Shown here: positions 9,355-29,186 of the stretch, in pieces
How the letters are laid out: every line of letters starts with the position of its first letter
How positions within the stretch are numbered: the stretch's first letter is position 1
Source of the DNA: an uncultured Nitrososphaerota archaeon
Lineage (GTDB): Archaea > Thermoproteota > EX4484-205 > JAAOZP01
Direction of reading: 5' to 3'
NCBI GenBank assembly: GCA_964616835.1
Contig: CAZTSG010000004.1
Location: 1-53,484 of the forward strand
DNA length: 53,484 bases
Translations under genes and position numbers: made by a program
Notes under the pieces: generated by a model
Told to the model about the DNA's origin: nothing
Databases searched by the model: none
What the model saw: the letters and a program-made list of their open reading frames with translations, nothing else

Positions 9355-12201
9355 GTGGAGGAACCGTCTAGCAGGGAAGTCGTCTCAATGCTTGCCGAGC
9401 CCGTTGCCAAGCTCGTTTTAGAGAGGGGTCTTATACCGTTAACCGAGCCGCAGCTTAAAGCAATACCTGAAATAATTAATGGGAACAACGTTCTAATAGT
9501 AGCCCCCACCGGAATAGGGAAGACGGAAGCAGCCCTGCTCCCGATTTTAAGCATGATGGTTAGAGAGAGGATTAATGTTAAGAGCGGAGTGTTTCTGCTC
9601 TACGTAACCCCGCTCAGGGCTCTAAACAGAGACCTGGTGGAGAGGATAAGCTGGTGGGCTAGCAGGCTCGACTTGAAGCTCTCAGTAAGGCATGGGGATA
9701 CTCCGTCTTCCCAGAGAAGAGCCCAGTCATTAAGCCCTCCTCACATCCTCGTCACAACGCCGGAGACTTTTCAAATCCTGCTGATAGGCGCCAGGCTCAG
9801 GAGCCATTTGAAAACCGTGAGATGGGTCGTGGTCGACGAGCTTCACGAACTGGCTTCAGACAAAAGGGGGAGCCAGCTCTCCCTCGGCCTGGAGAGGCTT
9901 AAGAAGCTCGTGGGGGGGAAGATACAGATCATAGGGCTCTCCGCAACCATAGGCGAGCCGGAGCAGCTTGCGCGCTTCCTCGTAGGGTCGGATGGCGATT
10001 TTAAGGTTGTTGCAACTCCAGTGCCCAAGGGCGTTGAAATAAGCCTTGTGCTCCCAGACGTTGCCGATGAGGATTATTTACTTGCGGAAAGGCTTTTGAC
10101 AACCCCCGAGGTAGCGGCAAGGCTCAGAGTTATTAGGGAAGCGCTTGGCAGGAGCAACGCTTTACTGCTCTTCACCAACACTAGAGCAACGGCTGAGGCG
10201 CTCTCCAACAGGCTGCTGGTAATGAGCCTCCCCACTCCTGTTTCAATCCACCACGGGTCTCTCGGCGTGGAGGCGAGGGTTAGGGCGGAGGAGGGTTTGA
10301 AGGAGGGGGAGTTGAGGGGGGTAGTATGCACCTCCAGCCTTGAATTAGGCATAGACGTCGGCTCTATAGATTTCGTAATACAATACGGCTCGCCGAGGCA
10401 GGCTTCGAGGCTCATTCAGAGAATCGGGAGGAGCGGGCACAGGATAGGCTTAACATCTAGAGGAATGGTTTTATGCATGGATGAGGACGACGCCATTGAA
10501 TCTACTGTTATAAGGAGGAGGGCTTTAAACAGCATTTACGAACCTGTTTCGCCTCCAGAAGCTCCCTACGATGTTCTTGCGCATCAAATAGTAGGAATGC
10601 TCTTGGAAAAGAACAGGTGGAGTGTGGAAGAAATGTTGAAGCTTATTCAGGGCAGTACACCGTATTCAAGAATTTCGAGAGGGGAGTTGGAGAGGATCCT
10701 GGAGTTTCTCTCAACGCAGTATCCGAGGCTGCTGTTTTTCGAAAAATACAGTGACATGGTCAGACCTGGGAGGAGAAGAGAGCTCATAAGGTTCTTCTTC
10801 GAACATATTTCAAGCATACCTGAGGTCAAGCAGTACCCTGTTTTCAACGAGGAAGAAAACCTTGTCGTCGGAAACTTGGATGAGGAGTTCGTTGCAGAGA
10901 AAGGCCTTCCGGGGACGAAATTCGTAATGGGGGGACTAGTATGGTCGATAATTCAGGTTTTTAACGGTAAGGTCATAGTTAAGAGGGCGGAGGACTCTTT
11001 AGGAGCAGTACCCTTCTGGACCGGTGAGGAAATACCTGTTACTTACGAAGCAGCGATAGAAGTAGGGGGCTTCAGAAGGATGGTTGAAGAAGAGTATCGT
11101 AGGGGAAGCAGACCAGAGGAAATAGTTGAAAAAGTATCTGAAAAATACGGTGTTGAAGGGGATTTCGCTCTCAAGATCGTTAAGCCTACTTTAGAGTGTC
11201 TTGAGAAAGGCATACCAATCGGCACTGATAGGAGAATCGTGTTTGAGAAGTGGGGCGACTATACCATCATACACGCTTGCTTGGGAGACCTTGGAAACAG
11301 GGCTTTGTCAAAGATCGTTGGGTCAATAGTGCTTTCTGAAGTAGGGTTAACGGTTCCCGTGAGCAGAGACCCCTATAGAGTGATGGTTGAAAGAGTAGTC
11401 TCGTCGTCGGTGATACTGGATAGGATTAGAAGCCTCGATGAGAAGGAAGTTATGAGGATGCTCTTAGAGAATATTGAAAACGTTGGGCTTTTCAAAAGAA
11501 GGTTCCTACACGTCGCTAGGAGAATGGGGATAATAGAGAAAGACGCTGACCTCACATCCATAAGGTTGGAATCCCTCATAAGAAGCAGTAAGGGAACAGT
11601 GGCCTATGATGAGGCAGTTAAGGAATTGCTGTCGAAAGACTATGATGTAAAACCACTGATGGAGATGGTTAGGAAAATTGCCTCGGGGGAGCTTGAAACA
11701 ATTGTGTATGAGAACGAAAATGAGCCATCCCCCTTGGCAAAACCCATACTTAGACAGGCTGAGAGACACCTCGACATATATCCTCCGGAGAAGGTTGACA
11801 AGATAGTTTTAATGTATGCCTCAGCAAGGCTTAGGAATACTCCCCTAGAACTTGTTTGTAGCGAATGCGGCTTGCTCCATGGCACTATTAAACCGGAGGA
11901 ATATTCTCCGGGTGCAAGGTGCAGCAGGTGCGGTGGTAAACTGGGCGTGAACCCTATGCCGGGCGTTAGAATTAGGCGCGGGAAATCGAGGAGGATGAAA
12001 ATGGTTTTCAGAAAGATCGCTAAAACGGCGGAGTTGCTTGAAAAATACGGTGGAGATGCTGCTCTAGCCCTTGCCGGGAGAGGATTAAGCCTGAAGACTG
12101 TTGAGAAAATACTGTTGAGAAAAAGCGCGACGGGGGAGGATATTGTGAAGCTGATAGTCGACGCTGAGAGAAAGCGTTTTCAAAGAGCTTTAGAAGCTTA
12201 G
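9355..12201 (+). CDS. lhr: Lhr-like SF2 DEAD/H helicase with C-terminal Zn ribbon
   Basis: Motifs APTGIGKT, DELH, SAT, SSLELGIDVG, QRIGRSGH; C-terminal CSEC and CSRC. Confidence 0.88.
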   Translation: MEEPSSREVVSMLAEPVAKLVLERGLIPLTEPQLKAIPEIINGNNVLIVAPTGIGKTEAALLPILSMMVRERINVKSGVFLLYVTPLRALNRDLVERISWWASRLDLKLSVRHGDTPSSQRRAQSLSPPHILVTTPETFQILLIGARLRSHLKTVRWVVVDELHELASDKRGSQLSLGLERLKKLVGGKIQIIGLSATIGEPEQLARFLVGSDGDFKVVATPVPKGVEISLVLPDVADEDYLLAERLLTTPEVAARLRVIREALGRSNALLLFTNTRATAEALSNRLLVMSLPTPVSIHHGSLGVEARVRAEEGLKEGELRGVVCTSSLELGIDVGSIDFVIQYGSPRQASRLIQRIGRSGHRIGLTSRGMVLCMDEDDAIESTVIRRRALNSIYEPVSPPEAPYDVLAHQIVGMLLEKNRWSVEEMLKLIQGSTPYSRISRGELERILEFLSTQYPRLLFFEKYSDMVRPGRRRELIRFFFEHISSIPEVKQYPVFNEEENLVVGNLDEEFVAEKGLPGTKFVMGGLVWSIIQVFNGKVIVKRAEDSLGAVPFWTGEEIPVTYEAAIEVGGFRRMVEEEYRRGSRPEEIVEKVSEKYGVEGDFALKIVKPTLECLEKGIPIGTDRRIVFEKWGDYTIIHACLGDLGNRALSKIVGSIVLSEVGLTVPVSRDPYRVMVERVVSSSVILDRIRSLDEKEVMRMLLENIENVGLFKRRFLHVARRMGIIEKDADLTSIRLESLIRSSKGTVAYDEAVKELLSKDYDVKPLMEMVRKIASGELETIVYENENEPSPLAKPILRQAERHLDIYPPEKVDKIVLMYASARLRNTPLELVCSECGLLHGTIKPEEYSPGARCSRCGGKLGVNPMPGVRIRRGKSRRMKMVFRKIAKTAELLEKYGGDAALALAGRGLSLKTVEKILLRKSATGEDIVKLIVDAERKRFQRALEA

Positions 12202-12296: not shown

Positions 12297-12848
12297 TCAA
12301 GCGCTTAAAACATAGTGTATGAATTTCTCCACATCGAGTTCAGCGAAAGTCCTCCATCCTAGCACAAGATTATTCCCGTCTTCAGCAATGTATCCCCTAC
12401 GTATGTACCTGGCGAGGTTAAGCTTGACTTTCCACTCGGGAAATTTCTTTTTCAGTATTTCCTCAACCTCTTTAACCGGGGCCGACCCCTTATGAGAGAT
12501 TATCGTTGATATGACGACAGCCAACCCAGCGATCTCGTCTATAGACCATCCTAGTGTTTTCGCAGCGGTAATGCTCAATTCATCCTTGAGCGTAACGTAG
12601 AACCTTGCAGTAGAGAGTTTGCTTTCGTCATCGCTGATATTAAGCTCGCTCCCGTCGTCCGAGACTATTTTTATCGTTAACCCAAGTTCTTGAAAACGCG
12701 TGTTGAGAAACTTGATTATAGAAAGATAGCCTGGCCCAAGGTTCTTCTTAAGCTCCCACCCCTTAACCCCTGGAACTCTGTGACTTTTAAACAATAAGAG
12801 TTGAACTGCCCGCGCGACCTTGCTCCTTATTCTTTCCTCCCGCTCCAA
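12297..12848 (-). CDS. tandem winged-helix KITE-like protein (Nse1/Nse3-MAGE-like)
   Basis: The C-terminal RGYI...LVLGWRTFAEL echoes the Nse1/MAGE G-x-R-x-x-x-E end. It lies directly downstream of a kleisin-like gene. Confidence 0.6.
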   Translation of the reverse strand: MEREERIRSKVARAVQLLLFKSHRVPGVKGWELKKNLGPGYLSIIKFLNTRFQELGLTIKIVSDDGSELNISDDESKLSTARFYVTLKDELSITAAKTLGWSIDEIAGLAVVISTIISHKGSAPVKEVEEILKKKFPEWKVKLNLARYIRRGYIAEDGNNLVLGWRTFAELDVEKFIHYVLSA

Positions 12849-12860
12849 TTCACTATCCTC

Positions 12861-13571
12861 CTAAATGGGTAATGCTACTGAATGCTTGCCAACATCCTTC
12901 GGGCTCGTCTTGAAAACCCAGACCTTGTTTTTCAAAGGGTCCTGCACAATCCCCACAAGCCCCCTTGTCATGAGGAAGCTTAAAGCTAATGCTCTCAACA
13001 CCTTCTTCTCCTCCCCCTCCCTATTTATCAAGTCGTAATAGTCAACAGGTTCAGAACCGATTTCCCCCATGATCTTCTCCATCTCGGCTTCAAAATCAGC
13101 CTCCTCCATCTCCAAGAGCTCGCTAAGCATGCTCGGAGTACCTGTTAAGGCTTCCTCAGCCCCAGGCAAGTAGTATTCCCTCAGGTTAGCCCAGTAGCCG
13201 TAGGCTGTCCGCATTATGCTCATAGTAGCTTGCTCGTTTTCAGCAATAGGCCTGAAGGCTTTAAGGAAGGCTTCTGCAAGCCTCTCCCTGTCAAGCCCCA
13301 TGAGCCTGATCTCCATGAGAAAGGGGTCGAGGTAGAGCCTGCTAGCCCTCTTCTTAACATCCTCTTGTTGGAGCAGTATCACATAGATTATCTTTAGCAG
13401 AGCAGCCATGTTCATAACTAGGGTTTTCTCATCCATTTCAGATAGTCCTTCTCTAAGTTTCCTAATGTTCTCTTTAACGTCTACTACGAAAGGATCAAGA
13501 TTCTTCTCAATAACCTCATCGCAAAGACGGATTATTCTCTCAATCAGCTCGACGTATTTGCTAGATGGCAT
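12861..13571 (-). CDS. kleisin-like protein (ScpA/Nse4-like)
   Basis: N-terminal LDPFVVDV (compare INPWDIKI in ScpA of this window). C-terminal kleisin WH pattern ALALSFLMTRGLVGIVQDP. Confidence 0.65.
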   Translation of the reverse strand: MPSSKYVELIERIIRLCDEVIEKNLDPFVVDVKENIRKLREGLSEMDEKTLVMNMAALLKIIYVILLQQEDVKKRASRLYLDPFLMEIRLMGLDRERLAEAFLKAFRPIAENEQATMSIMRTAYGYWANLREYYLPGAEEALTGTPSMLSELLEMEEADFEAEMEKIMGEIGSEPVDYYDLINREGEEKKVLRALALSFLMTRGLVGIVQDPLKNKVWVFKTSPKDVGKHSVALPI

Positions 13572-13679
13572 TTAGTTCAACTCCTCATCCATGCGACTCA
13601 GAACCAACTGATAGAATAAGGATATTAAACTTTATATGGGTTAGTAAAAATCAATAAAATCGAACCAAAAACGAGTACT

Positions 13680-14242
13680 TTACGAAAATTTATTTTTACA
13701 ATGCTTAACCTTGTATTTTGCGGCGAGTATTGTTAAAAATCCGATAATCACCATTATAACTCCCCCGCCAACAATATTATAGTCAGGCTCGTCTCGAAAT
13801 TTAGCTACCCATACATGCACCTCCTTTGGATACAGGTCATCGTTAAGGAAGATGAAGTATTTTACGTGAAACGAACCTAGTGCACCTGGAAATTCCGGCG
13901 GGGATGCGTTAAACAAATATTCTGCGTGATTAGTTTCAACCCAATGAGGCTCGTACTCTCCCCTCCGCCATTTCCAGAAATATTCATCTGATAACGGGTA
14001 ACACGTTTTAATAGTATCGTTAGAGACGAAGGAAGCAATATAGTTAGATAGAGAGTAAATCGCAAAGTCAATCCAATCAGAACTGTTTCCCGGAATAATG
14101 AGTACGTTATCCCTCTCTACATAATAGAAAACCCTTACTCTCCCGAACAAAGGGTTTATCAGGAAGATAGTAAGGATGATGATGCTAAAGCAATCAGCAT
14201 CGAGCCAAGTCCCATTGCTACGAGGAAAAAATCTTTTCCCAT
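13680..14242 (-). pseudogene. frameshifted membrane protein gene
   Basis: SD (GGTG) and ATG 14242 give MGKDFFLVAMGLGSMLIAL, which soon stops. The hydrophobic helix continues in another frame (SIIILTIFLINPLFGRV) into the 13680-14150 ORF. Confidence 0.5.
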
Positions 14243-14277
14243 ATTCGCACCTTTAATTACTTATGCAACAAATTCTT

Positions 14278-15179
14278 TTAAGGAATTGCAGGCACCGTTT
14301 GAAGGAAACCAGTAGCAACTCCGTCATTAGTGTATACTTTTCCCTTAATGACATAAGCTGGAGTTATTTTTGTGAATTCTGCTTCTAATGAGGGGGCAAA
14401 ATACACTAGTTCAACCGATTCAACGACAGCTTTGATAATTCTTTCCCTAGGCACATCTACCCCGTAGCCCAGCTCTCTGAGCTTTTCAACAGCCTGTCTA
14501 GGCTTCAGTATGCGAACTTTTTGAGAAGCATTAACCTCCCAGAAGCTGCCGATGAAACCTATTATCTCTCCGCCCTTACCTATGTAAACCCGGACTTTAG
14601 CGCCAGGACCCCACAATGGCAAACCATCATAGTAAAGCATAAAATTTTTACATGAATATTGTTCAACATCGTTTTCTCAGAACCATTCACAGTATAATAT
14701 ATCGTAATAGTATCGTTGGCAACATCCGAAAACGATATTTGTAGGCTTCTTGACGTAATACCTTCGGCCTTAAGCCTCCTAAGAAATTGTTCTGCAATAG
14801 CTATACAGTTTTCGGTCAATGGAAGTTCTTGCCAAGTATAGGCAGCACAACACATTTTATCATTATCGAAGTATTTTATTCCTCCAGAAGCATATACGGA
14901 GAGTTCACGGGAACCCTCTACAATCTTCCAAGCATTATCCGTAAATTGAGGCTCGCTCCTCATATTAAACAGTTCCAATGCCATCTTCAAGACCTGCTCT
15001 CTAGTTATCTTTCTAGGCATCGTCTCTAGAACATAAACTTCATCTGCCACTTCCAGCAAATTGGTTTCAATAATGATTTCTTCACCACTCGCAGGCACTA
15101 ACCAACCGACTATATACAGCACCATAAGAAATAATACAGATGCTGGAAAAACTATTTTAAACATGGTTTTCATACTCAA
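14278..15179 (-). pseudogene. frameshifted secreted/surface protein gene
   Basis: A signal-peptide ORF (14580-15179) and the 14278-14640 ORF overlap. They join at an A5T4 tract near 14641-14649 (NIHV...FMLYYDGLP). Confidence 0.6.
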
Positions 15180-15397
15180 TACTGTCGATCTCTTTTTTTA
15201 AATACCATCATCCTTTACTTCCTGAAACAATCGTATATTAAACAAAGATTTAAAAAGCTATCTTTCAAAAATGTTTCTGAAATATTCTAAAAAGTTGCTA
15301 TAACAAGCCCACTTACCTGTTGACTAAGATTCTTCTCTGCTAATCTCATTACGTTCAGTTACTGTTTTTTTATTTCTCCTCAACTACTTCATCATTT

Positions 15398-17188
15398 TTA
15401 CTGTTCAACGCTCGGCTCAACCTCTAGTATCCTCGACTCATCCTGAACCTTCTGAACCACTATTATGTGCGCGTCTTTAATTGGAGGAGGGGTTCCGGGG
15501 GTTATGCAGAGGTAAGCTACCCCCGGGTTCTCCTTAACAACCTCCGAGAGTATTTGGAAAAACCTCTTTCTCATGAGCGGGTCCATGTGAACATCCAGCT
15601 CGTCTATTCCACGTATGCTCGATTTTACCAATGATTGAAGAGCCATGAGGAAGGAAACTACTGTAGCACTTCTTTCCCCGCCGCTCTGAGTATAGACGTT
15701 GAACTCCGTCAAGGGGCCGCCGCCGAAGCCGACGAATATTACGAGTCCAGCGTTATCAATATCTTCCATGTTCATTAGGCGCAGGTCTCCGGTTCCCCCC
15801 ATGGTCTCCATGTTCTTCTTAAAATTCTCGTTTATCTTCTCAACTACCTCAACGATCTTCCTTCTCCATATTTCCATTCTCTCCTTAAGCTCGGCTTCAG
15901 CAGCCATCCTGTTTTCGACAACCATCTTAACCTTCTGCTCAAGGTCACTGTACACTTTAAGATAATTGTTGTAGAATTCCTCAGCGTTCTCTGAAACCGT
16001 GCCGAGGGAAGCTATTTGGATAACGCAGTCGTTAATCCTCTTCTCTATAACGTCGGGTGGCTCAACCTCCCTGGGGGCTTCGCCCTCTAATTGACTCTTA
16101 ACTTCATTAATCTTAGTGTCGATTGATTTCAGCTTCTCCTCTAGGCGGCGGCGCTCAGCCTCAAGCTCTCTCAATCTGTATTTCACTACCTCAGCCCTAA
16201 CGTTCAGCTTAACGTACTTCCTTATCAGCCTAGTTATCTCCTCGTCGAGCCTACTATACTCGTCGATGAGGCTTTCAACATCAGCCTTGCCCTCCGAGGC
16301 CTTGAAGAAAATGCCTTTCAGCTTCATCCTAGCCTTGTTCAGACTGTTCCAAACCTTCTCACTCTTCTCCAAGTTCCTCGATGCAATCTGATTGCCTCTG
16401 CTAATCCTCTCCCCGATCTTAGAAATCTTCTCCTGAATCCTCAGCCTCTCACCATTAAGCTGGTTGAAAACACTCCATTTGAAGAGCCTGTTCAACTCCG
16501 CGTGAAGCGCTTGAAGCTCCCTTCTCTTAACGAGCTTCTCATACTCTGTTCTCCACATTTCCAGCGTCTCCCGGGCCTCGTTCAAGAGGGTTTCAACAGC
16601 CTTCTCCTCGCTAACTATCTTGCTCAACTTCTCCTGGGAGGCCTTTATGTTGTCCCTTAAGCCGGAGAGGCCGACAGCACCCTCTACAAGCCTAAGCTTC
16701 TCGGAAGGATCTAGAGATGCGAATTCCTCAATCATGTACTGATGCATTATTATGAGCATGTTCGAAGGATCTATGCCGAAGAGTGAAAGAATCTCGTCAA
16801 CCTCCATTTTAGTAGCAGGGTTATAGTTTATCTGGCTCCAGTACTCACCGTCCCTCCTCAAGTACCTGGTTATGACGAGCTCGTCAGACCTTACGAAGGG
16901 CACAGGTCTCTTTCCATCATTGCCCGGGGAATTGTCGAAAATCAGTGTTACTCTAGCAATGTCCTCCCCAATCCTTATTAAATCGCTCAGTTTCTCAGCC
17001 CTGCCGCTACGCGACAGGCCGAGGCCGACTGAAATACCCCATAGAATCGAAGACTTGCCGGAACCGTTCGGGCCCAGAATCAGATTAAGTCCAGGGCGAA
17101 TAGCTATGTTACTGTAGCGATAGCTCATGAAATTCTCTAGTATGACGGCTTTCAAACGAATGCTTTTCTCCTGCTCCGCTGCCTCCAC
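15398..17188 (-). CDS. short SMC5/6-like (coalescin/ClsN-type) ATPase
   Basis: LENFMSY, Walker A GPNGSGKS, Q-loop MHQ, signature QSGGERS, Walker B/D-loop IDELDVHMDP; short coiled coils, 596 aa. Confidence 0.85.
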   Translation of the reverse strand: MEAAEQEKSIRLKAVILENFMSYRYSNIAIRPGLNLILGPNGSGKSSILWGISVGLGLSRSGRAEKLSDLIRIGEDIARVTLIFDNSPGNDGKRPVPFVRSDELVITRYLRRDGEYWSQINYNPATKMEVDEILSLFGIDPSNMLIIMHQYMIEEFASLDPSEKLRLVEGAVGLSGLRDNIKASQEKLSKIVSEEKAVETLLNEARETLEMWRTEYEKLVKRRELQALHAELNRLFKWSVFNQLNGERLRIQEKISKIGERISRGNQIASRNLEKSEKVWNSLNKARMKLKGIFFKASEGKADVESLIDEYSRLDEEITRLIRKYVKLNVRAEVVKYRLRELEAERRRLEEKLKSIDTKINEVKSQLEGEAPREVEPPDVIEKRINDCVIQIASLGTVSENAEEFYNNYLKVYSDLEQKVKMVVENRMAAEAELKERMEIWRRKIVEVVEKINENFKKNMETMGGTGDLRLMNMEDIDNAGLVIFVGFGGGPLTEFNVYTQSGGERSATVVSFLMALQSLVKSSIRGIDELDVHMDPLMRKRFFQILSEVVKENPGVAYLCITPGTPPPIKDAHIIVVQKVQDESRILEVEPSVEQ

Positions 17189-17327: not shown

Positions 17328-18026
17328 ATGGTTACTGCGGGCAAGATATTCAGGCTCGACGAATACTTGGCTCAAAGCGAGATTGCTCAGAGGCTTAAGG
17401 GGTATAGGGTAGAGACCCCCCTCGAAGGCTCTGACCTCGCGCTCGTTACCGAGGTGGTTGAGCTTAAGGCTTCTCAAAACATGCTGGAGGGAGTTTTGAG
17501 CAGGGATGTCCCCATCACGCTGAGGAGAAGAGATAAGACTGAAATCGCCATCAAGACTGTTGACTCCGTGTTCAGCTTCGTATTCCGCAAGAAGAGGGTT
17601 TTCCTCATAGTTTTGGAGAAGAAGCCTGTTGCCAACATGGTTGCCAACATGTTCAGCCAAATAATATTTCTTAAAAGCGGGAAGATAGTTGAAGCAAGGA
17701 TCTCCCCGAAAGTCATGCTAGAATATCATAATGCTAATAGCGACGCTGCTAAAGTTGTTTTCTTCGACAATGTCGACATACCTAACATTGAGAAACTATC
17801 CTTATACGGGCCTTCGCTGGCCAACACCAGTCTTTTCTCAGAGTATTTGAAGCACGGGGACATATGGTATGTAGTGATTTCCCACCGTAAATCGGGCTAC
17901 GTTGCCGGCATTACTAGGGATAGCGTAGTAACTATTTTCAGCAGGATCGACCCAGTTACATTCATAAGGTTCTCCGTCGAGGAAATTATTCCACTAATTG
18001 AAGAATCCGAGTCCTCTAAGACGTAG
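17328..18026 (+). CDS. hypothetical protein, divergent from the SMC5/6-like gene
   Basis: 232-aa ATG ORF with natural composition. It fills the gap between convergent and divergent neighbours. Confidence 0.7.
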   Translation: MVTAGKIFRLDEYLAQSEIAQRLKGYRVETPLEGSDLALVTEVVELKASQNMLEGVLSRDVPITLRRRDKTEIAIKTVDSVFSFVFRKKRVFLIVLEKKPVANMVANMFSQIIFLKSGKIVEARISPKVMLEYHNANSDAAKVVFFDNVDIPNIEKLSLYGPSLANTSLFSEYLKHGDIWYVVISHRKSGYVAGITRDSVVTIFSRIDPVTFIRFSVEEIIPLIEESESSKT

Positions 18027-23900: not shown

Positions 23901-24078
23901 TTCCGCCTTAGTGTTTTGAAATAACCCTTAAAAACTTATTCCTACACGGTCTTATGGGTCTTATGGAGCCAGGGAAGGGCCCTGGGGCATCTGTACGCAG
24001 AAGCACTGCGTGTTTGAAGAGCATGCTGGAAAGGTCAGGGCCTCAGGGATTGGGGAAGTTAGCGGAGATGGTTTAGGG

Positions 24079-27000
24079 TTGCACCTCACCAGGATTGAAA
24101 TCAGGAATTTCAAATCTATAGGGGACCGGCAGGTAATAAACCTAAGCAAGGGGCTGACAGTGCTGACAGGTAGAAACGGCTCCGGCAAGTGTGTTGCGCC
24201 ATGGATGCCCGTGGCCCAGCCCTGGGGGGAGGAACCAATAGAATCCCTTTTCCATGATGCTTGCTATAACGGCATCAGGATTAATGAAAATGCTTCCGAG
24301 TACGTGATTCCCTCCCGGAGAGTGATGCTACTAAGCTACCATGGACACCTAAAAAAGTGTTTAGAAACCAGTGTGAGTACTGTTTTCAGAAAGCCTTACG
24401 ACGGTTGGCTGTTGAAACTGGTAACGTTATCAGGGAGAATCATCGAAGTTACTCCAGAGCACAGAATAGCAGTAGCTTCTAGCACTGGTTTCAAATGGGT
24501 TGAAGCATCTCTTCTAACACTTGGTAGTAAAATAATGGTTTTTGAAAACGGGAAGATTGGGATCGATGTCCTGGATAAGGTTGTGAGGAGACGATGGACA
24601 GGCGTGGTTTACGACCTCTATGTAAGAAACGCTGGATCATACATTATTGGGGGCGGAGTAATAGTTCATAATAGTAATCTGGTTGACGCGATACGTTTCG
24701 CATTAGGAGAGAACAATCCGAGGCTACTAAGGACAGATAGGCTTTCCTCCTTAGTCAACGATAATGCTGGAAAAGATGCGGAAGCATATGTAAAAGTAAC
24801 AATAGACAACAGTGACTCAGTTATTCCCGGCCAGGATAAGATTGTTACGATAGCGAGGAGAATGGGACGTGACGGAGAGAGCACATACTATATTAATGGT
24901 AGGAGGGCCCCTAGGAATATTATTGAAGACATAATTTCTACAGCGGGTCTTTCAGCAAGAGGGTACAATATAATTCTTCAAGGAGAAATATCAAGGCTCG
25001 CGGACAAGAATCCAGTGGAGAGGAGAAGAGAGATCGAACAGGCGCTTGGCCTAGCTCAGTACGATGAGAAAAAGATGGAGGCTCTTAACAATCTGCAGCA
25101 GGCAGATAATAACCTTAGGGTTGTACAGGCTAGGCTCCAAGAAATAGATAGGAGGATGCTTCAGTTAGAGAAGGAGAGGAACCTCCTTTTGAGAAGACGA
25201 ATGCTTGAGAAAGAGATTGAAAAAGTACAGCTTATAATAGATTCTCTCGAGTACTGGGGGCTCATAAACAAGCTTAACGATGTTTCTAAAAGAATTGAAG
25301 AGAACAATGCTTTAAAAAACAAGCTTGAAGCTGAACTCGCTACAATACAATCTGAAAGGAATAAGCTTATGGAAAGAACTGAAGAGTTACTAAAGGCGGC
25401 TCCGGCAATCGGTGACTCTGAGAAGATTAGACTCGAGTACGAGCTTAAAGATTGCGAAAGACGGCTCAATGAGTGTTTGAAAAAGACAGAAGAAGAAAAT
25501 CTGGAATTAAATACTATTAAGAAGGAACTAGGAAAAGTTAAGAAGAAAAGAAGCATGATGCAGAGAAAGATTAGACGATTATTAAAAGTTTCAAACAGGA
25601 TGTCAATAAAAAAGTCTCTCCTCGAAAACCTACTTTCTAGGCTCTTAGAAGAAAAGAAGAGAATGCAGGAAATCGAGAGGCGGAGGATGGAAGAAGCGTA
25701 TCAGACCAAGAGTCAGTTAACTATGGTTGAGAAAGAGTTGGAAAATAAGCTTTTAGAGGAGAAGAATGCTGAAAGAATGCTGAAAGATATTCTCATCCAT
25801 TATAATAGTGTTAGGAGGAGGATGAATAGCTTGAACAGGGTGAAAAACAGAGAGAGCGCTAGGAGAAGCAGATTAATAGAAAAACTGGATAACGTTGAAA
25901 AATATTTGACGGAGAGAAGAAAGACTCTTGATAATACTATTGAAACGCTTAGAGTTCTTATCGAAAGTATGGATGTGTTTAGAATATTCTTCGCTAAGGC
26001 CTCTGGTGCTTTAAGCTACAGAAACAGGAAAGATAAGAAGAGGATTCTAGAGCTTATGAGAAAAGCCTTAGAAGAGAAGGGTTTAAGAGTTTATGGAATT
26101 TTAAGGGAGAATCTCTGGTTCCCAGAGGATGTTAAAAAGGCTGTTGAAAGCCTAGCTGGAGAATGGATGGACGCCATTCTGGTTGAGAATTCGCTAGACA
26201 TGCTTGTATTAACGAGACTGTTCAGCGGAGAAACTTCTGGCGTGAGAGTGTTAACGCCTGAAGGAGAAGTCTCTAAAAAGGAAGTGCCTCCCAAGCTTAA
26301 CGGACGTGGTAAGCACCTAATGGATTTGCTTAATTATCCTAAGATTATTGAGAAGCATGTTTTAAAAATATTCTGGAATAGCGTCTTGGCAAACAGTGTT
26401 GAAGACGCTTTAGCTTTTATGAAGAATGGTTTTAAAGCAGTAACTCGAGACGGGCAGGTTTTCACAAACGAAGGCGCGTTAATACCGGAGGATATTGATA
26501 AGGAATTTGAGAACATTCTGAAATTTATGAAAGCCTTTACTGTGAAGGCTGGAGAATTATCTAAGATGATTGAAACAGTAGAGACACGTATAAAACATTC
26601 TTTAAGCAGGAAGATAGTGGAGACAACAGAGTTTCGAAATAAGCTTGAAGGCGAGCTGAATGTCATCGATTCATATATGAGTAGGCTGGAGGAACAATTG
26701 AATATTCTGGCTAGCGAATACTTATCGGCCTCTAGAAGGCTCAGCCAGGTTTTTAGAGAACGAAATACTGGAAAAAAGCGTTTGCTTGAAAAAGAGTTGC
26801 AAAGACTAAGGTTTTCGATAATTTTGAAAGAAAAAGAGTTGGGGAACATCCGTAAGAAGATAAAACTGCTTGAAAAAAAGATGGAGAAACTGAGTGAGGA
26901 AAAAACGCGAGTTAGGAGAAACCTAATAGAGATTGAGAACATTATCAATACATTGCATAGGAGAGTTGAGGAATGTAGGAACGTTGAGGGAGCATTAGCC

Positions 27001-27987
27001 AGTAGGATTTTTGCGATTAGGAATGAAATAAGAAGCACCATGGTTTTAGCAAATGATCTTAGGAATAAAATCGAATCCTTAAGGGAGAAGATGGGTGAGG
27101 AAGCTGGAACAGAGTACGGAGAGAGTAGGGATAGGAGGAGTGAGCTTGTTGAAGCAATAAGGAAACTGGATGAGGAAGTTGAGAGACTGAATTCAGAGAT
27201 TAATAGGGTTAAAGACGTTGAGAGGAGGCTTCTAGTAGAGAAAGAAGTTAATGAAAGGAGAGTGGAAGAATTGAGAAACAGAATTCTAGGTCAACCACTA
27301 CAAGTGCCGGAGGAAACCAGAGGCTCTGCGGAGAGGTACCTAAGCATTCTTAAGAGCGAGCTTGAAAAAGTCCAAGAGGTAAACATGCTCGCCATCAAGC
27401 AGTATGAACAGGAGATTGATTTCTATAAGAATGCTTTAGAAAGGATTAACGAGCTTGAGGAAGAGAGGAGAAGCATTCAAGAGTTTATGGAGGAGATCGA
27501 AAGAAAGAAAAGAGAGGCTTTTCTAGAGGGTTTGAGCAAAATAAACAATTATTTCTCAACGTTTTTCAACAAGATGGCTGGTGGAGAAGGATGGCTTCAA
27601 CCCGAGGATCCTGATAACCCTTTTGAAACAGGCTTGAACGTCTATGTCAAGTTCCCGGGAAAGGAGGCTAGGGTAATAAGTGGAGTAAGCGGGGGGGAGA
27701 AGTCGGTTGCAGCACTCTGCTTAATCTTTGCAATGCAGAAACTTTTCCCAGCAGCATTCTACATTTTCGACGAGCCCGATGCGCATTTGGATTACGTTAA
27801 TATTGATAAGATGACCGACCTCCTTAAAGAAGTATCCAGGGAGAGTCAGATCATAGTAATATCGCTCAGAGACGTTGTCGTCAGCAAGGCTGATAAGGTT
27901 ATAGGAGTATACGTTAAGAAAGGGTCGTCAAGATTCATGGAGATGCCGGGCGAGAAGGCTTTGGAGGAGATAGCTGTTGCTGGATGA
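24079..27987 (+). CDS. smc: chromosome segregation protein Smc (condensin-type) containing a mini-intein
   Basis: Likely TTG start at 24079 (LHLTRIEIRNFKS). Walker A GRNGSGK/SN split by the intein; LQG Q-loop, hinge-like region, SGGEKS, FYIFDEPDAHLD. Followed by scpA and scpB. Confidence 0.92.
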   Translation: MHLTRIEIRNFKSIGDRQVINLSKGLTVLTGRNGSGKCVAPWMPVAQPWGEEPIESLFHDACYNGIRINENASEYVIPSRRVMLLSYHGHLKKCLETSVSTVFRKPYDGWLLKLVTLSGRIIEVTPEHRIAVASSTGFKWVEASLLTLGSKIMVFENGKIGIDVLDKVVRRRWTGVVYDLYVRNAGSYIIGGGVIVHNSNLVDAIRFALGENNPRLLRTDRLSSLVNDNAGKDAEAYVKVTIDNSDSVIPGQDKIVTIARRMGRDGESTYYINGRRAPRNIIEDIISTAGLSARGYNIILQGEISRLADKNPVERRREIEQALGLAQYDEKKMEALNNLQQADNNLRVVQARLQEIDRRMLQLEKERNLLLRRRMLEKEIEKVQLIIDSLEYWGLINKLNDVSKRIEENNALKNKLEAELATIQSERNKLMERTEELLKAAPAIGDSEKIRLEYELKDCERRLNECLKKTEEENLELNTIKKELGKVKKKRSMMQRKIRRLLKVSNRMSIKKSLLENLLSRLLEEKKRMQEIERRRMEEAYQTKSQLTMVEKELENKLLEEKNAERMLKDILIHYNSVRRRMNSLNRVKNRESARRSRLIEKLDNVEKYLTERRKTLDNTIETLRVLIESMDVFRIFFAKASGALSYRNRKDKKRILELMRKALEEKGLRVYGILRENLWFPEDVKKAVESLAGEWMDAILVENSLDMLVLTRLFSGETSGVRVLTPEGEVSKKEVPPKLNGRGKHLMDLLNYPKIIEKHVLKIFWNSVLANSVEDALAFMKNGFKAVTRDGQVFTNEGALIPEDIDKEFENILKFMKAFTVKAGELSKMIETVETRIKHSLSRKIVETTEFRNKLEGELNVIDSYMSRLEEQLNILASEYLSASRRLSQVFRERNTGKKRLLEKELQRLRFSIILKEKELGNIRKKIKLLEKKMEKLSEEKTRVRRNLIEIENIINTLHRRVEECRNVEGALASRIFAIRNEIRSTMVLANDLRNKIESLREKMGEEAGTEYGESRDRRSELVEAIRKLDEEVERLNSEINRVKDVERRLLVEKEVNERRVEELRNRILGQPLQVPEETRGSAERYLSILKSELEKVQEVNMLAIKQYEQEIDFYKNALERINELEEERRSIQEFMEEIERKKREAFLEGLSKINNYFSTFFNKMAGGEGWLQPEDPDNPFETGLNVYVKFPGKEARVISGVSGGEKSVAALCLIFAMQKLFPAAFYIFDEPDAHLDYVNIDKMTDLLKEVSRESQIIVISLRDVVVSKADKVIGVYVKKGSSRFMEMPGEKALEEIAVAG
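24190..24672 (+). mobile_element. 161-aa mini-intein in the Smc Walker A motif
   Basis: K|CVAP start, block B VTPEHRI, block F VYDL, end VHN|S. No LAGLIDADG motifs. Confidence 0.92.
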
Positions 27988-28651
27988 GGCTCAGGAAGCC
28001 TCTGAAGCAATATTTGACTTAATAAGGCTAAGGAGGATTAATCCCTGGGATATTAAAATATCTAGTGTCTTGAAGCAACTATCCAAGGAGCTTCGCGAAA
28101 AAGGCTATATGCAATTCACTCTTTCAGGACTCTTGTTATTAGCGTCTTCCATAGTATACTTGAGGAAGACGGAAACCCTTCTAAATATCGAGCCCAAGGA
28201 AGATGAAGATACTGATGGAATCGAGGAGATTACAGACATTCCTTTAGAAGCACTTGATAAGATAAGCCCTTCGAACATCCCCCTTAGACCTTCGCAACCC
28301 GTTATAGATCTTGAGCAACTGGTTAAAGCACTTCTTCGCATACTGGAGAAAGAGTATTCGAAGAAGCCTGTTGAAGAAGAACTTTTGCCACCGATGGTTC
28401 TTCAACAGGATGAATTTATGAGGAATATTGAGAAAATGGTTGAAGAGTTTAAGAAAAGCCTTTTCGAGCAGGTAGTCAGCCGAGGCAGGGTTCCTTTGAG
28501 AATCCTGCTTGAAGGAAAGCAGCCCCTTGAAGTAGCCAGAACATTCATACTAATACTCTTCGTACTGTCTGAGCCTGGTTTTGACATTGTTTTCGAGGGT
28601 GATGAATGCTACATAGTGGCGGAGGATGGTTTTGAAGGAATCGGAGTATAA
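27977..28651 (+). CDS. scpA: kleisin ScpA
   Basis: INPWDIKI, SGLLLLASS and C-terminal ARTFILILF; directly follows smc. Confidence 0.85.
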   Translation: MLDEAQEASEAIFDLIRLRRINPWDIKISSVLKQLSKELREKGYMQFTLSGLLLLASSIVYLRKTETLLNIEPKEDEDTDGIEEITDIPLEALDKISPSNIPLRPSQPVIDLEQLVKALLRILEKEYSKKPVEEELLPPMVLQQDEFMRNIEKMVEEFKKSLFEQVVSRGRVPLRILLEGKQPLEVARTFILILFVLSEPGFDIVFEGDECYIVAEDGFEGIGV

Positions 28652-29186
28652 AAAGAGGATTGAGGCAGCACTGTTCGCGTCAGGTAGGCCATTAAGCATT
28701 TTACAACTCAAGTCTGCAGCAGGGGTTAGGAAGGTTGATAAGGTTGAGAACGCGTTGAGAGAGTTGATTGAAGAATATAGGTCGAGAGATACAAGCCTTG
28801 AAATAGTTGAAATAGGCCATGAAAACTACATGCTCAGAGTAAAACCTGAGTATGCTAACTGCGTTAAAAAACTGGGAGTAAAGCCGATGATTAGCCGAGC
28901 TAGTTTGAAGACCCTGACCCTGATAGGTTTAAAACAACCTATTGCTCAATCCAAGATTGTTGCCTTAAGGGGGACGCATGCTTACAAGCAGGTCCAGAAG
29001 CTGGTTGAAATGGGGCTTGTTGAAGCAAGCAGGAGCGGGAGAAGCAGGCTACTAAGTCTTACTCCTACTGGCTTAAGCATTTTCGGCGCGCGTAACGATG
29101 AGGAGCTCAGACAAGCCTTAAGAAGCCGCTTGCAGCCAATGCCTTCTCATGAGCAGAATAGGGAGGATACAGGACAGGCTGAGTAG
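28626..29186 (+). CDS. scpB: KITE protein ScpB
   Basis: Motifs IEAALFASGRPL, TLTLIGLKQPI, RG...AY. Confidence 0.9.
   Translation: MVLKESEYKKRIEAALFASGRPLSILQLKSAAGVRKVDKVENALRELIEEYRSRDTSLEIVEIGHENYMLRVKPEYANCVKKLGVKPMISRASLKTLTLIGLKQPIAQSKIVALRGTHAYKQVQKLVEMGLVEASRSGRSRLLSLTPTGLSIFGARNDEELRQALRSRLQPMPSHEQNREDTGQAE

What the first reader, a model, noticed from the sequence alone, without database searches (positions are those of the whole stretch)
12297..17188. Second, SMC5/6-like complex (short SMC, kleisin, Nse1/3-like KITE) alongside canonical Smc-ScpAB
Seen: three co-oriented genes. The first is a 596-aa SMC ATPase with QSGGERS (SMC5-like signature) and DELDVHMD (SMC6-like Walker B/D-loop), short arms and no recognisable hinge. 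The second is kleisin-like and the third is a tandem-WH protein ending LGWRTFAEL. A separate smc-scpA-scpB operon lies at 24079-29186. Known: SMC5/6 uses the Nse4 kleisin and Nse1/Nse3 KITEs, Sulfolobus coalescin is a short SMC, and archaeal SMC5/6 relatives have been reported bioinformatically. Inference: a complete minimal proto-SMC5/6 holocomplex coexisting with a condensin-type complex.
Basis: partly seen in the sequence, partly recalled or inferred. Interest (0 to 1): 0.72.

Follow-up and report, generated by a model that had tools for sequence, protein, structure and literature searches.

The report
Archaeal short SMC5/6-like complex, split operon
This archaeal genome carries, beside its ordinary chromosome-condensing Smc-ScpAB genes, a second short-armed, hinge-less SMC with its own Nse4-like and Nse3-like partners, a kind of SMC5/6 relative that has already been described from sequence comparisons but has never been studied at the bench.

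Summary
The 596-aa ATPase (15398-17188, minus) is an SMC whose family profile scores SMC6 and SMC5 first among solved structures. Two of its homologues are on the published list of 80 'SMC5/6-related archaeal SMC'. The 236-aa protein (12861-13571) belongs to a family in which 24 of 79 members hit Pfam Nse4_C. Its model has a kleisin layout, and a complex prediction puts it on the SMC neck and cap (0.66 against 0.00 for the best control). The 183-aa protein (12297-12848) folds as a tandem winged helix whose best matches are Nse3 and Nse1. A canonical Smc-ScpA-ScpB operon lies at 24010-29186.

Two corrections to the observation: the three genes are not adjacent here, and a 1.8-kb strain-specific insertion with three extra ORFs separates the SMC gene from the other two. 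In 21 related loci the three genes abut.

The SMC has no hinge and no zinc hook. The tip of its arm is the least conserved part of the protein and the part most variable in length. That point was not in the main texts I read.

Verdict: a new member of a known kind, of moderate interest.

The parts
15398..17188 (-). Short (596 aa) SMC5/6-related SMC ATPase. N-head about residues 1-170; neck helices about 172-208 and 409-444; arm tip near 295; conserved break at 366-410; C-head about 445-596.
   Evidence: Pfam SMC_N 5.4e-28 with no hinge hit. The PDB profile ranks SMC6 and SMC5 first. Homologues are on the published SMC5/6-related list. Motifs. Neck residues come from the interface. The tip is placed by the indel hot spot and the conservation minimum.
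13587..15409 (.). Strain-specific insertion of about 1.8 kb between the SMC and kleisin genes. It carries three minus-strand ORFs of unknown function: 14580-15179 (199 aa), 14278-14640 (120 aa, overlapping the first by 61 nt) and 13680-14150 (156 aa).
   Evidence: Similarity to six same-genus loci stops at 13586 and resumes at about 15410. Those two points lie about 100 nt apart in the relatives. The insert DNA was not found in 24 of 25 relatives' genomes; one had a 74-nt match. It is single-copy in the window's own genome. GC is 0.408 for 14001-16000, against 0.444-0.475 on either side. No Pfam, NCBIfam or PHROGs hit at the curated cut-offs.
12861..13571 (-). Nse4-like kleisin (236 aa). N-terminal helical domain with a long helix at 48-80; flexible middle; C-terminal winged helix at about 157-221.
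   Evidence: 10 of 19 and 24 of 79 family members hit Pfam Nse4_C. hhalign against the window's own ScpA-like protein gives 84% probability, E 7.2e-6. AF2 model has mean pLDDT 85. Eight of the nine top Foldseek chains are kleisins (two of them chains of one entry), though none reaches E<=1e-3. The complex model scores 0.66 against 0.00. The window's own protein has no Pfam hit.
12297..12848 (-). Nse1/Nse3-like KITE (183 aa), tandem winged helix.
   Evidence: AF2 model has mean pLDDT 88.4. Foldseek top matches are 7dg2_C (Nse1-Nse3-Nse4 complex, E 2.9e-5, TMq 0.64) and 5hvq_C (MAGE-G1/NSE1), followed by JetB, ScpB and MukE. 3 of 23 family members hit Pfam MAGE, best 3.6e-4. The window's own protein has no Pfam hit.
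9355..12201 (+). Lhr-type DEAD/DEAH helicase, convergent on the KITE gene with 95 nt between the two stops. It is a recurrent neighbour of the operon.
   Evidence: Pfam DEAD, DEAD_assoc and WH_Lhr. An Lhr homologue lies convergently next to the KITE gene in 12 of 21 related loci.
17328..18026 (+). Conserved hypothetical protein (232 aa), divergent from the SMC gene by 139 nt. Whether it belongs to the system is unknown.
   Evidence: No hit in Pfam, NCBIfam, PHROGs or PADLOC. Homologues at 1e-56 to 1e-67 lie near the SMC gene in 6 of 13 phylum-level loci, divergent and adjacent in L016 and L021. The Atlas gives only unnamed clusters.
24010..27987 (+). Canonical Smc (1325-aa frame) with a hinge and a 161-residue intein-like insert in Walker A (nt 24190-24672).
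   Evidence: Pfam SMC_N 6.8e-53, SMC_hinge 7e-9, Intein_splicing 6.1e-8 (33.1 bits, below the 35.8 cut-off). The insert's boundaries read GRNGSGK|C...VHN|SN. PDB hits are Smc and SMC1-4 only.
27977..28651 (+). ScpA-like kleisin of the canonical complex (224 aa).
   Evidence: Sits between smc and scpB. No Pfam or NCBIfam hit. It is related to the Nse4-like family profile by hhalign, 84% probability.
28626..29186 (+). ScpB, the KITE of the canonical complex (186 aa).
   Evidence: Pfam SMC_ScpB 2.2e-36.

Best explanation
The three genes encode an archaeal SMC5/6-related complex: a short SMC ATPase, an Nse4-like kleisin and a single Nse1/Nse3-like KITE. It exists alongside the canonical Smc-ScpAB complex encoded 7 kb away.

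Most likely mechanism, inferred from homology: two copies of the SMC engage their heads around two ATP molecules. The kleisin's N-terminal helix joins the neck coiled coil of one SMC, and its C-terminal winged helix sits on the cap of the other. A KITE dimer binds the middle of the kleisin. Together they clamp double-stranded DNA on top of the heads, as the head module of eukaryotic Smc5/6 does.

The arms differ from eukaryotic SMC5/6 and from canonical Smc. By my estimate each arm is only about 120-150 residues long. The arms end in a poorly conserved hairpin of variable length, with no hinge and no zinc hook. Any closed compartment would therefore have to be formed by heads, kleisin and KITE rather than by a hinge.

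In this genome a 1.8-kb insertion has separated the SMC gene from the kleisin and KITE genes. All three reading frames and the ATPase motifs remain intact.
For: Shown by tools:
- SMC identity and SMC5/6 affinity, and homologues on the published list.
- The kleisin family hits Nse4_C: 10 of 19 and 24 of 79 members. Weak profile hits go to EID3, Nse4 and ScpA. hhalign links it to the window's own ScpA-like protein.
- The kleisin model has a kleisin layout and kleisins top the Foldseek list.
- The KITE fold's best matches are Nse3/Nse1 chains, and 3 of 23 members hit MAGE.
- Complex model of SMC with kleisin: score 0.66 in three runs against a best control of 0.00. That mark was reached by 116 of 157 solved complexes and 2 of 215 mismatched pairs. 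The runs agree in at least 69% of contacts, and the partner's pLDDT is at least 67. Contacts fall on the neck (SMC 172-208 and 409-444 with kleisin 28-80) and the cap (SMC 21-48 and 566-583 with kleisin 191-236). Similar complexes are solved, so this pass may reflect likeness to them.
- Gene order: the three genes abut in 10 of the 11 phylum-level loci that include the 3' end of the SMC gene, and in 11 of 20 genus- and order-level loci.
- The KITE is single-copy in 106 of 201 genomes sampled across the phylum, with families mostly all-or-none.
- No hinge hit. No Cys-x-x-Cys in any of 17 family members. The arm tip is the conservation minimum (0.32-0.34) and receives 435 of the 534 inserted residues.

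Inferred, not shown: stoichiometry, DNA clamping, ATP dependence and cellular role.
Against: - The window's own kleisin and KITE have no Pfam or NCBIfam hit by themselves.
- No Foldseek match of the kleisin model reaches E<=1e-3. In the second look its winged helix ties with unrelated winged helices at Z 8-9.
- The KITE profile finds nothing in the PDB by sequence and is not detectably related to the window's ScpB.
- I built no tree with eukaryotic SMCs, so 'SMC5/6-related' rests on score ranking and on the published list.
- The operon is broken here by the insertion. In 9 of 20 genus- and order-level loci the kleisin and KITE genes were not found downstream of the SMC gene; one of those loci holds only about 0.6 kb of downstream sequence. 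In three of five such genomes checked they lie 1.4-2.1 kb upstream on the other strand, and in two they are on another contig.
- How a hinge-less SMC would dimerise or entrap DNA is unknown.
Confidence: 0.85

Rival explanations
1. The genes are of the SMC5/6-related kind, but in this genome the complex is uncoupled or decaying. The insertion cut the kleisin and KITE genes off from the SMC promoter, so the three proteins are no longer made together.
For: There are 1826 nt with three foreign ORFs between the SMC and kleisin genes. The insertion was not found in 24 of 25 relatives. The operon is also rearranged in other members of the genus.
Against: All three frames are intact and 86-90% (SMC) and 94-95% (KITE) identical to the closest relatives that have an intact operon. 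The ATPase motifs are present. AT-rich TATA-like boxes and a GGAG stretch lie upstream of the kleisin ATG (my reading of the sequence, not a test).
Confidence: 0.08
2. It is a defence-type SMC system (Wadjet/JetABC-like or Lamassu-like) that restricts foreign DNA, and not a chromosome-maintenance complex.
For: PADLOC gives hits for the ATPase: mad3 at 89 bits, LmuB at 81 and JetC at 38. JetB is among the structural matches of the KITE. From recall, eukaryotic Smc5/6 also restricts extrachromosomal DNA.
Against: Those PADLOC scores are lower than SMC_prok_A at 185 bits and SMC6 at 209 bits for the profile. The kleisin and KITE have no PADLOC hit. No nuclease gene lies in the operon. The KITE gene is single-copy in 106 of 201 genomes and its presence follows taxonomic families, which looks like vertical inheritance rather than a mobile island.
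Confidence: 0.04
3. The ATPase is an archaea-specific SMC-related protein (coalescin/Sph type) or a Rad50-type repair ATPase that merely lies near two unrelated small genes.
For: Its length of 596 aa is typical of that family. There are weak NCBIfam hits to ASRP (45 bits) and Rad50 (67 bits).
Against: The ASRP score of 45 bits is far below the 300-bit cut-off, and SMC_prok_A scores 185 bits. No Cys-x-x-Cys zinc hook occurs in any of 17 members, whereas PMC9389158 (passages read) reports the hook in the vast majority of ASRPs. Rad50 scores only 46 bits against the profile. Linkage to the kleisin and KITE genes is tight and widespread. The genome has a separate Rad50/ASRP-like 663-aa gene on another contig.
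Confidence: 0.03

Closest known systems
SMC5/6-related archaeal SMC complexes: 'SMC5/6-related aSMC' of Yoshinaga & Inagaki 2021 (PMC8665677), and the SMC5/6-related SMC-kleisin-kite operons of van Hooff et al. (bioRxiv 10.1101/2024.01.07.573240)
   Same: It is the same protein family: two homologues at 44% and 38% identity are on their list. It has the same three-gene make-up, with an Nse4-related kleisin and an Nse1/3-like kite. It also coexists with a canonical Smc-ScpAB complex.
   Different: This copy's operon is split by a 1.8-kb insertion. The short arms and missing hinge were not mentioned in the main texts I searched.
Eukaryotic Smc5/6 core (Smc5-Smc6-Nse4-Nse1-Nse3)
   Same: Head sequence affinity, including QSGGERS and the ITP stretch shared with SMC5. 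An Nse4_C-type kleisin. A KITE that is Nse3/Nse1-like by fold. Predicted neck and cap interfaces.
   Different: One SMC gene instead of two and one KITE instead of two. The SMC is about half the length and has no hinge. The KITE has no RING domain: it is 183 aa and consists of the tandem winged helix only. No Nse2, Nse5 or Nse6 counterpart was identified, and I did not search for them.
Prokaryotic Smc-ScpAB, present in the same window at 24010-29186
   Same: The SMC-kleisin-KITE architecture and gene order. The two kleisins are detectably related.
   Different: The canonical Smc is 1325 aa with a hinge, and its solved relatives are Smc and SMC1-4. ScpB and the second KITE show no sequence similarity.
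Archaea-specific SMC-related proteins (ClsN/coalescin, Sph1/2)
   Same: A short, archaeal SMC-superfamily ATPase of about 600 aa.
   Different: No zinc hook, a score far below the NCBIfam ASRP cut-off, and dedicated kleisin and KITE partners.

Membership tests
SMC5/6-related archaeal SMC (Yoshinaga & Inagaki 2021) | SMC-type head with Walker A, signature motif and Walker B, split by a coiled-coil region | tested here: met
   GPNGSGKS at 39, QSGGE at 501 and IDELD at 528. Pfam SMC_N 5.4e-28.
SMC5/6-related archaeal SMC (Yoshinaga & Inagaki 2021) | Closer to SMC5/SMC6 than to canonical Smc or SMC1-4 | tested here: met
   Tested by score ranking only. Profile scores: SMC6 209 bits, SMC5 200, Smc 160, SMC2 133. 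In the control, the canonical Smc finds no SMC5/6 among 45 hits. Homologues NHV06955.1 and RLG91423.1 are in the authors' 80-row list.
SMC5/6-related archaeal SMC (Yoshinaga & Inagaki 2021) | Clusters with eukaryotic SMC5 and SMC6 in a phylogeny | not tested
   No eukaryotic SMC sequences could be obtained for a tree.
Kleisin (Nse4/ScpA superfamily) | N-terminal helical domain that joins the SMC neck, and a C-terminal winged helix that binds the SMC cap | tested here: met
   This rests on models, not measurement. Model layout. The predicted interface has kleisin 28-80 on SMC 172-208 and 409-444, and kleisin 191-236 on SMC 21-48 and 566-583, scoring 0.66 against 0.00.
Kleisin (Nse4/ScpA superfamily) | Sequence membership in Nse4_C (PF08743) | tested here: inconclusive
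   The window's protein has no hit. 24 of 79 homologues hit at E<=0.01, best 5.7e-6, and 10 of 19 in the smaller set, best 3.4e-7. I did not check which of these pass the gathering score.
KITE (Nse1/Nse3/ScpB/MukE/JetB) | Tandem winged-helix fold | tested here: met
   Model pLDDT 88.4. Foldseek matches: 7dg2_C at E 2.9e-5, 5hvq_C at 7.4e-5, then JetB, ScpB and MukE.
KITE (Nse1/Nse3/ScpB/MukE/JetB) | Binds the middle of its kleisin, as a dimer | not tested
Eukaryotic SMC5/6 holocomplex | Heterodimer of two distinct SMCs joined by hinges | tested here: not met
   There is one short-SMC match at full length in the window's own genome. It has no hinge hit, and its arm tip is variable.
Eukaryotic SMC5/6 holocomplex | Two KITEs (Nse1 with a RING domain, and Nse3), plus Nse2 and Nse5/6 | tested here: not met
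   There is one KITE gene per genome, 106 single matches in 201 genomes. At 183 aa it has only the tandem winged helix. I did not search for Nse2 or Nse5/6.
Archaea-specific SMC-related proteins (ASRP) | Zinc hook at the arm tip, and a score above the NCBIfam NF045487 cut-off | tested here: not met
   No C-x-x-C in any of 17 members. 45.3 bits against a cut-off of 300.
Rad50 | Zinc hook, and the best sequence match to Rad50 models | tested here: not met
   No C-x-x-C. Rad50 models score 40-67 bits against cut-offs of 700-1087. The profile scores 46 bits against solved Rad50.
Wadjet (JetABCD) | JetA, JetB and JetC matches, plus a JetD nuclease | tested here: not met
   JetC scores only 38 bits. 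The kleisin and KITE have no PADLOC hit. There is no fourth operon gene in the related loci.

The most novel reading that the evidence does not exclude
Across the phylum sampled here, the SMC5/6-related SMCs seen are 'mini-SMCs' of about 570-780 aa. Their arms are roughly a third of the usual length and they have no hinge or hook at all. If so, they cannot form the classical hinge-closed ring. They would instead work as an ATP-gated head clamp closed only by the kleisin and the KITE, possibly in DNA repair together with the Lhr helicase gene that so often lies next to them. This would be a natural minimal version of the DNA-clamping module of Smc5/6, and it would show which SMC activities need long arms.
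Probability: 0.3. Interest if true: 0.6.

Novelty: new member of a known kind. Interest (0 to 1): 0.35.

Why it matters
SMC5/6 is the least understood eukaryotic SMC complex, and its archaeal relatives are central to current ideas on how eukaryotic chromosome machinery arose. Those relatives are known only from sequence comparison. This locus adds nothing new in principle. It does offer a compact, thermophile-type three-protein set (596 + 236 + 183 aa) with a clear predicted neck and cap interface, which makes it a convenient object for reconstitution. If the short, hinge-less arms are real, the complex could test whether DNA clamping and ATPase control by kleisin and KITE work without arms and hinge.

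Tried and rejected
- Direct Pfam and NCBIfam scans of the two small proteins gave nothing, and so did single-sequence PDB searches.
- The KITE profile against PDB sequences gave only chance-level hits. hhalign of the KITE profile against the window's ScpB gave 0.2% probability.
- The VIA second look at the kleisin model was filled by the C-terminal winged helix. It tied ScpA's C-domain (Z 8.6) with unrelated winged helices (Z 8-9), so it does not discriminate.
- PHROGs found nothing for the three insert ORFs or the 232-aa neighbour.
- PADLOC gave one weak HamB hit (3.1e-4, 17.7 bits) on the 156-aa insert ORF, which I disregard.
- The Atlas search on the 232-aa neighbour returned only unnamed clusters. 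The Atlas search on the kleisin gave leads consistent with Nse4, including an archaeal cluster with Nse4_C in 18% of members at score 0.94. I use these only as a lead.
- The look-up of earlier findings returned nothing.
- Literature checks for a mention of short arms or a missing hinge: term searches inside PMC8665677, the preprint and PMC9389158 and two library searches found none. A search for inteins in SMC found nothing relevant in the listing.
- In locus L017 no kleisin or KITE was detected in the 10 kb after the SMC 3' end. I did not follow this up.
- A test of arm-tip dimerisation was considered but not run, because the single complex job went to the SMC-kleisin pair.

Full report
**What is there**

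On the minus strand the window holds a 596-aa ORF (15398-17188), three small ORFs (14580-15179, 14278-14640 and 13680-14150), a 236-aa ORF (12861-13571) and a 183-aa ORF (12297-12848).

The 596-aa protein hits Pfam SMC_N (5.4e-28) but not SMC_hinge. In NCBIfam it scores best on the SMC models (185 and 161 bits). That is well above Rad50 (up to 67 bits) and the archaea-specific SMC-related model (45 bits against a cut-off of 300). Walker A, the QSGGERS signature and the IDELDVHMD Walker B/D-loop are present.

The two small proteins at the 3' end have no Pfam or NCBIfam hit of their own.

- Smc at 24010-27987, with a hinge hit.
- A 224-aa gene at 27977-28651.
- ScpB at 28626-29186 (Pfam 2.2e-36).

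**The ATPase is SMC5/6-related**

Against the sequences of solved structures, the single protein finds Smc5 first (5e-27), then archaeal Smc (1.3e-21) and Smc6 (5.8e-18). Rad50 appears only at 6e-9.

A profile of 17 diverse family members (A1) sharpens this ranking:

| Solved family | Bits |
|---|---|
| SMC6 | 209 |
| SMC5 | 200 |
| archaeal Smc | 160 |
| SMC2 | 133 |
| Rad50 | 46 |

The C-terminal head aligns best with human SMC5 (70.9 bits). It shares QSGGERS and an ITP stretch with SMC5.

As a control, the window's canonical Smc gives 45 hits at E<=1e-10. All are Smc or SMC1-4, and none is SMC5 or SMC6.

This is a ranking of scores, not a phylogeny. I could not bring eukaryotic sequences into a tree.

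The link to the literature is direct, however. Two homologues of the window's protein are P0057 (44% identity, NHV06955.1) and P0067 (38%, RLG91423.1). Both stand in the second list of the supplementary table of Yoshinaga & Inagaki 2021 (PMC8665677). That list has 80 rows, which matches the '80 SMC5/6-related aSMC homologs' of their text.

**The 236-aa protein is an Nse4-like kleisin**

- The first search found only 28 relatives, nearly all close.
- Homologues extracted from related loci gave an alignment (A2) in which 10 of 19 members hit Pfam Nse4_C, best 3.4e-7.
- A search of 1.84 billion representatives with that profile found 293 proteins at E<=0.001.
- In the enlarged alignment (A4), 24 of 79 members hit Nse4_C at E<=0.01, and none hit ScpA.
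- Against solved structures the profile gives only marginal hits. The best is calmodulin (0.0027), which I take as chance. EID3 (0.0062), yeast Nse4 (0.012) and ScpA's N-domain (0.015) follow.
- hhalign relates the family to the window's own ScpA-like protein at 84% probability, E 7.2e-6, over 184 columns.
- The AlphaFold2 model (mean pLDDT 85) has an N-terminal helical domain with a long helix (48-80), a poorly defined middle and a C-terminal winged helix.
- Foldseek finds no match at E<=1e-3. Eight of its nine top chains are kleisins, two of them chains of one entry: Nse4, Brn1, ScpA's C-domain and RAD21.
- A second look with VIA-align shows that the C-terminal domain ties with many unrelated winged helices (Z 8-9). 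The fold alone therefore does not decide.

**The 183-aa protein is an Nse1/Nse3-like KITE**

- It has 517 homologues, none with a precomputed Pfam domain.
- 3 of 23 aligned members hit the MAGE homology domain, best 3.6e-4.
- The model (pLDDT 88.4) is a tandem winged helix.
- Its best Foldseek matches are a chain of the Nse1-Nse3-Nse4 complex (7dg2_C, E 2.9e-5, TMq 0.64) and of MAGE-G1/NSE1 (5hvq_C). Further Smc5/6 chains, JetB, ScpB and MukE follow. All the leading matches are KITEs, with the SMC5/6 type first.
- By sequence it is unrelated to the window's ScpB, and the profile finds nothing in the PDB.

**Do they belong together?**

Gene order says yes.
- Among 13 archaeal loci fetched from other species, 11 include the 3' end of the SMC gene. 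In 10 of these the kleisin and KITE genes follow at once, often overlapping. L017 is the exception.
- Among 20 loci from the same genus and order, 11 have the same tight order.
- In the other nine, the two genes were not found in the stretch fetched downstream. One of those loci holds only about 0.6 kb of downstream sequence.
- Of five such genomes checked, three have the pair 1.4-2.1 kb upstream on the other strand and two have it on another contig.

The complex prediction of SMC with kleisin scored 0.66 in all three runs, against 0.00 for the best of three controls. That mark was reached by 116 of 157 solved complexes and 2 of 215 mismatched pairs. The runs agree in at least 69% of contacts, and the partner's pLDDT is at least 67. 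The contacts are the two classical kleisin interfaces:
- Kleisin 28-80 lies on the neck helices (SMC 172-208 and 409-444).
- Kleisin 191-236 lies on the cap (SMC 21-48 and 566-583).

Similar complexes have been solved, so the pass shows likeness and not proof of binding.

**The insertion**

Similarity to six same-genus loci stops at 13586 and resumes near 15410. In those relatives the two points lie about 100 nt apart.

The 1.8 kb in between has these properties:
- It is single-copy in this genome.
- It was not found in 24 of 25 relatives' genomes.
- It lies in the lowest-GC stretch of the region, 0.408.
- Its three ORFs match nothing informative.

The 'three co-oriented genes' are therefore an operon split by a recent insertion.

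**Arms and hinge**

The neck residues leave about 200 residues (209-408) for the rest of the arm.

In the family alignment, conservation is lowest at residues 241-320 (0.32-0.34 against 0.8 in the heads). 435 of the 534 residues that other members have in excess are inserted after about residue 295. I read this as a plain hairpin tip of variable length.

A conserved proline- and glycine-containing stretch (about 366-410) interrupts the descending helix.

There is no hinge hit, and no Cys-x-x-Cys in any of the 17 members.

All strong matches in the relatives' genomes have open frames of 586-774 aa, against 1128-1360 aa for the canonical Smc in the same genomes. The 120 best database hits are 462-681 aa, though that search covered only lengths of 327-1043.

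I found no mention of this shortness in the main texts of the three papers.

**Distribution and rivals**

The KITE gene is present once in 106 of 201 genomes sampled across the phylum (52 of 97 genera). Most families are all-or-none. This fits a vertically inherited housekeeping complex better than a mobile defence island.

PADLOC gives only generic ATPase hits for the SMC (mad3 89 bits, LmuB 81, JetC 38) and nothing for the kleisin and KITE.

The ASRP and Rad50 readings fail on score and on the missing zinc hook. PMC9389158 (passages read) reports that hook in the vast majority of ASRPs.

**Comparison with the literature**

Yoshinaga & Inagaki (sections 10 and 14, and the supplement table, read) defined SMC5/6-related archaeal SMCs. 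They noted that 44 of 80 carriers also have a canonical SMC.

Van Hooff, Raas, Tromer and Eme (bioRxiv 10.1101/2024.01.07.573240; sections 8 and 14 read) report the following:
- Nse4 branches with kleisins of TACK and Asgard archaea.
- Archaea have Nse1/3-like kites.
- Many archaea carry two complete SMC complexes in separate operons.

This locus is a further member of that kind. No experimental work on such a complex came up in my searches.

**Mechanism**

The following is inferred from homology with Smc-ScpAB and Smc5/6, not shown here. Two SMC heads engage with ATP. The kleisin bridges neck and cap. A KITE dimer sits on the kleisin, and DNA is clamped on the heads. Without a hinge, any DNA compartment must be closed by heads, kleisin and KITE.

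The convergent Lhr helicase gene next to the KITE gene in 12 of 21 related loci is a lead towards a role in repair, nothing more. These loci are kin and not independent.

Noticed in passing
window 24190-24672 (within Smc, 24010-27987, plus strand): The canonical Smc carries a 161-residue intein-like insert inside Walker A. The boundaries read GRNGSGK|C...VHN|SN, and removing the insert would give GRNGSGKSNLVDAIRF. Pfam Intein_splicing scores 6.1e-8, but at 33.1 bits it is below the 35.8-bit cut-off. Same-genus genomes have canonical Smc frames of 1237-1306 aa, against 1169-1195 aa in many other genomes of the phylum. That suggests the insert is shared within the genus.
   Followed up: partly
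window 13587-15409: A strain-specific 1.8-kb insertion sits between the SMC and kleisin genes, with lower GC than its surroundings. The 199-aa and 120-aa ORFs overlap by 61 nt and may be one frameshifted gene. The first starts with a hydrophobic, signal-like stretch and the 156-aa ORF ends with one. No family was found.
   Followed up: partly
window 17328-18026 (plus strand): A 232-aa protein with no known family is strongly conserved (1e-56 to 1e-67 across classes). It recurs close to the short SMC gene, and is divergent and adjacent here and in L016 and L021. It could be an unrecognised partner or just conserved synteny.
   Followed up: partly
window 9355-12201 (plus strand): An Lhr-type helicase gene is convergent on the KITE gene. 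The same arrangement occurs in 12 of 21 related loci, including two from distant lineages, L010 and L012.
   Followed up: partly
window 15398-17188 and 24010-27987; relatives: The short-SMC gene and the canonical smc gene lie 7 kb apart here. In many relatives of the order they lie about 10-25 kb apart on the same contig, and the same holds in one genome of another family (G040). This proximity may be a trace of an old operon duplication or simply conserved synteny.
   Followed up: no
G000 contig C54, locus L077 2373-4364 (plus strand): There is a third SMC-superfamily ATPase, of 663 aa, with weak Rad50 (132 bits) and ASRP (110 bits) matches, both below their cut-offs. A 365-aa ORF without any NCBIfam hit precedes it and overlaps it by 4 nt.
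   Followed up: partly
relatives G002, G006, G009: In a subclade of the genus, the SMC gene lies on the opposite strand to the kleisin and KITE pair, 1.4-2.1 kb away. This looks like a local inversion of the SMC gene. So the operon has been broken more than once in this genus.
   Followed up: partly
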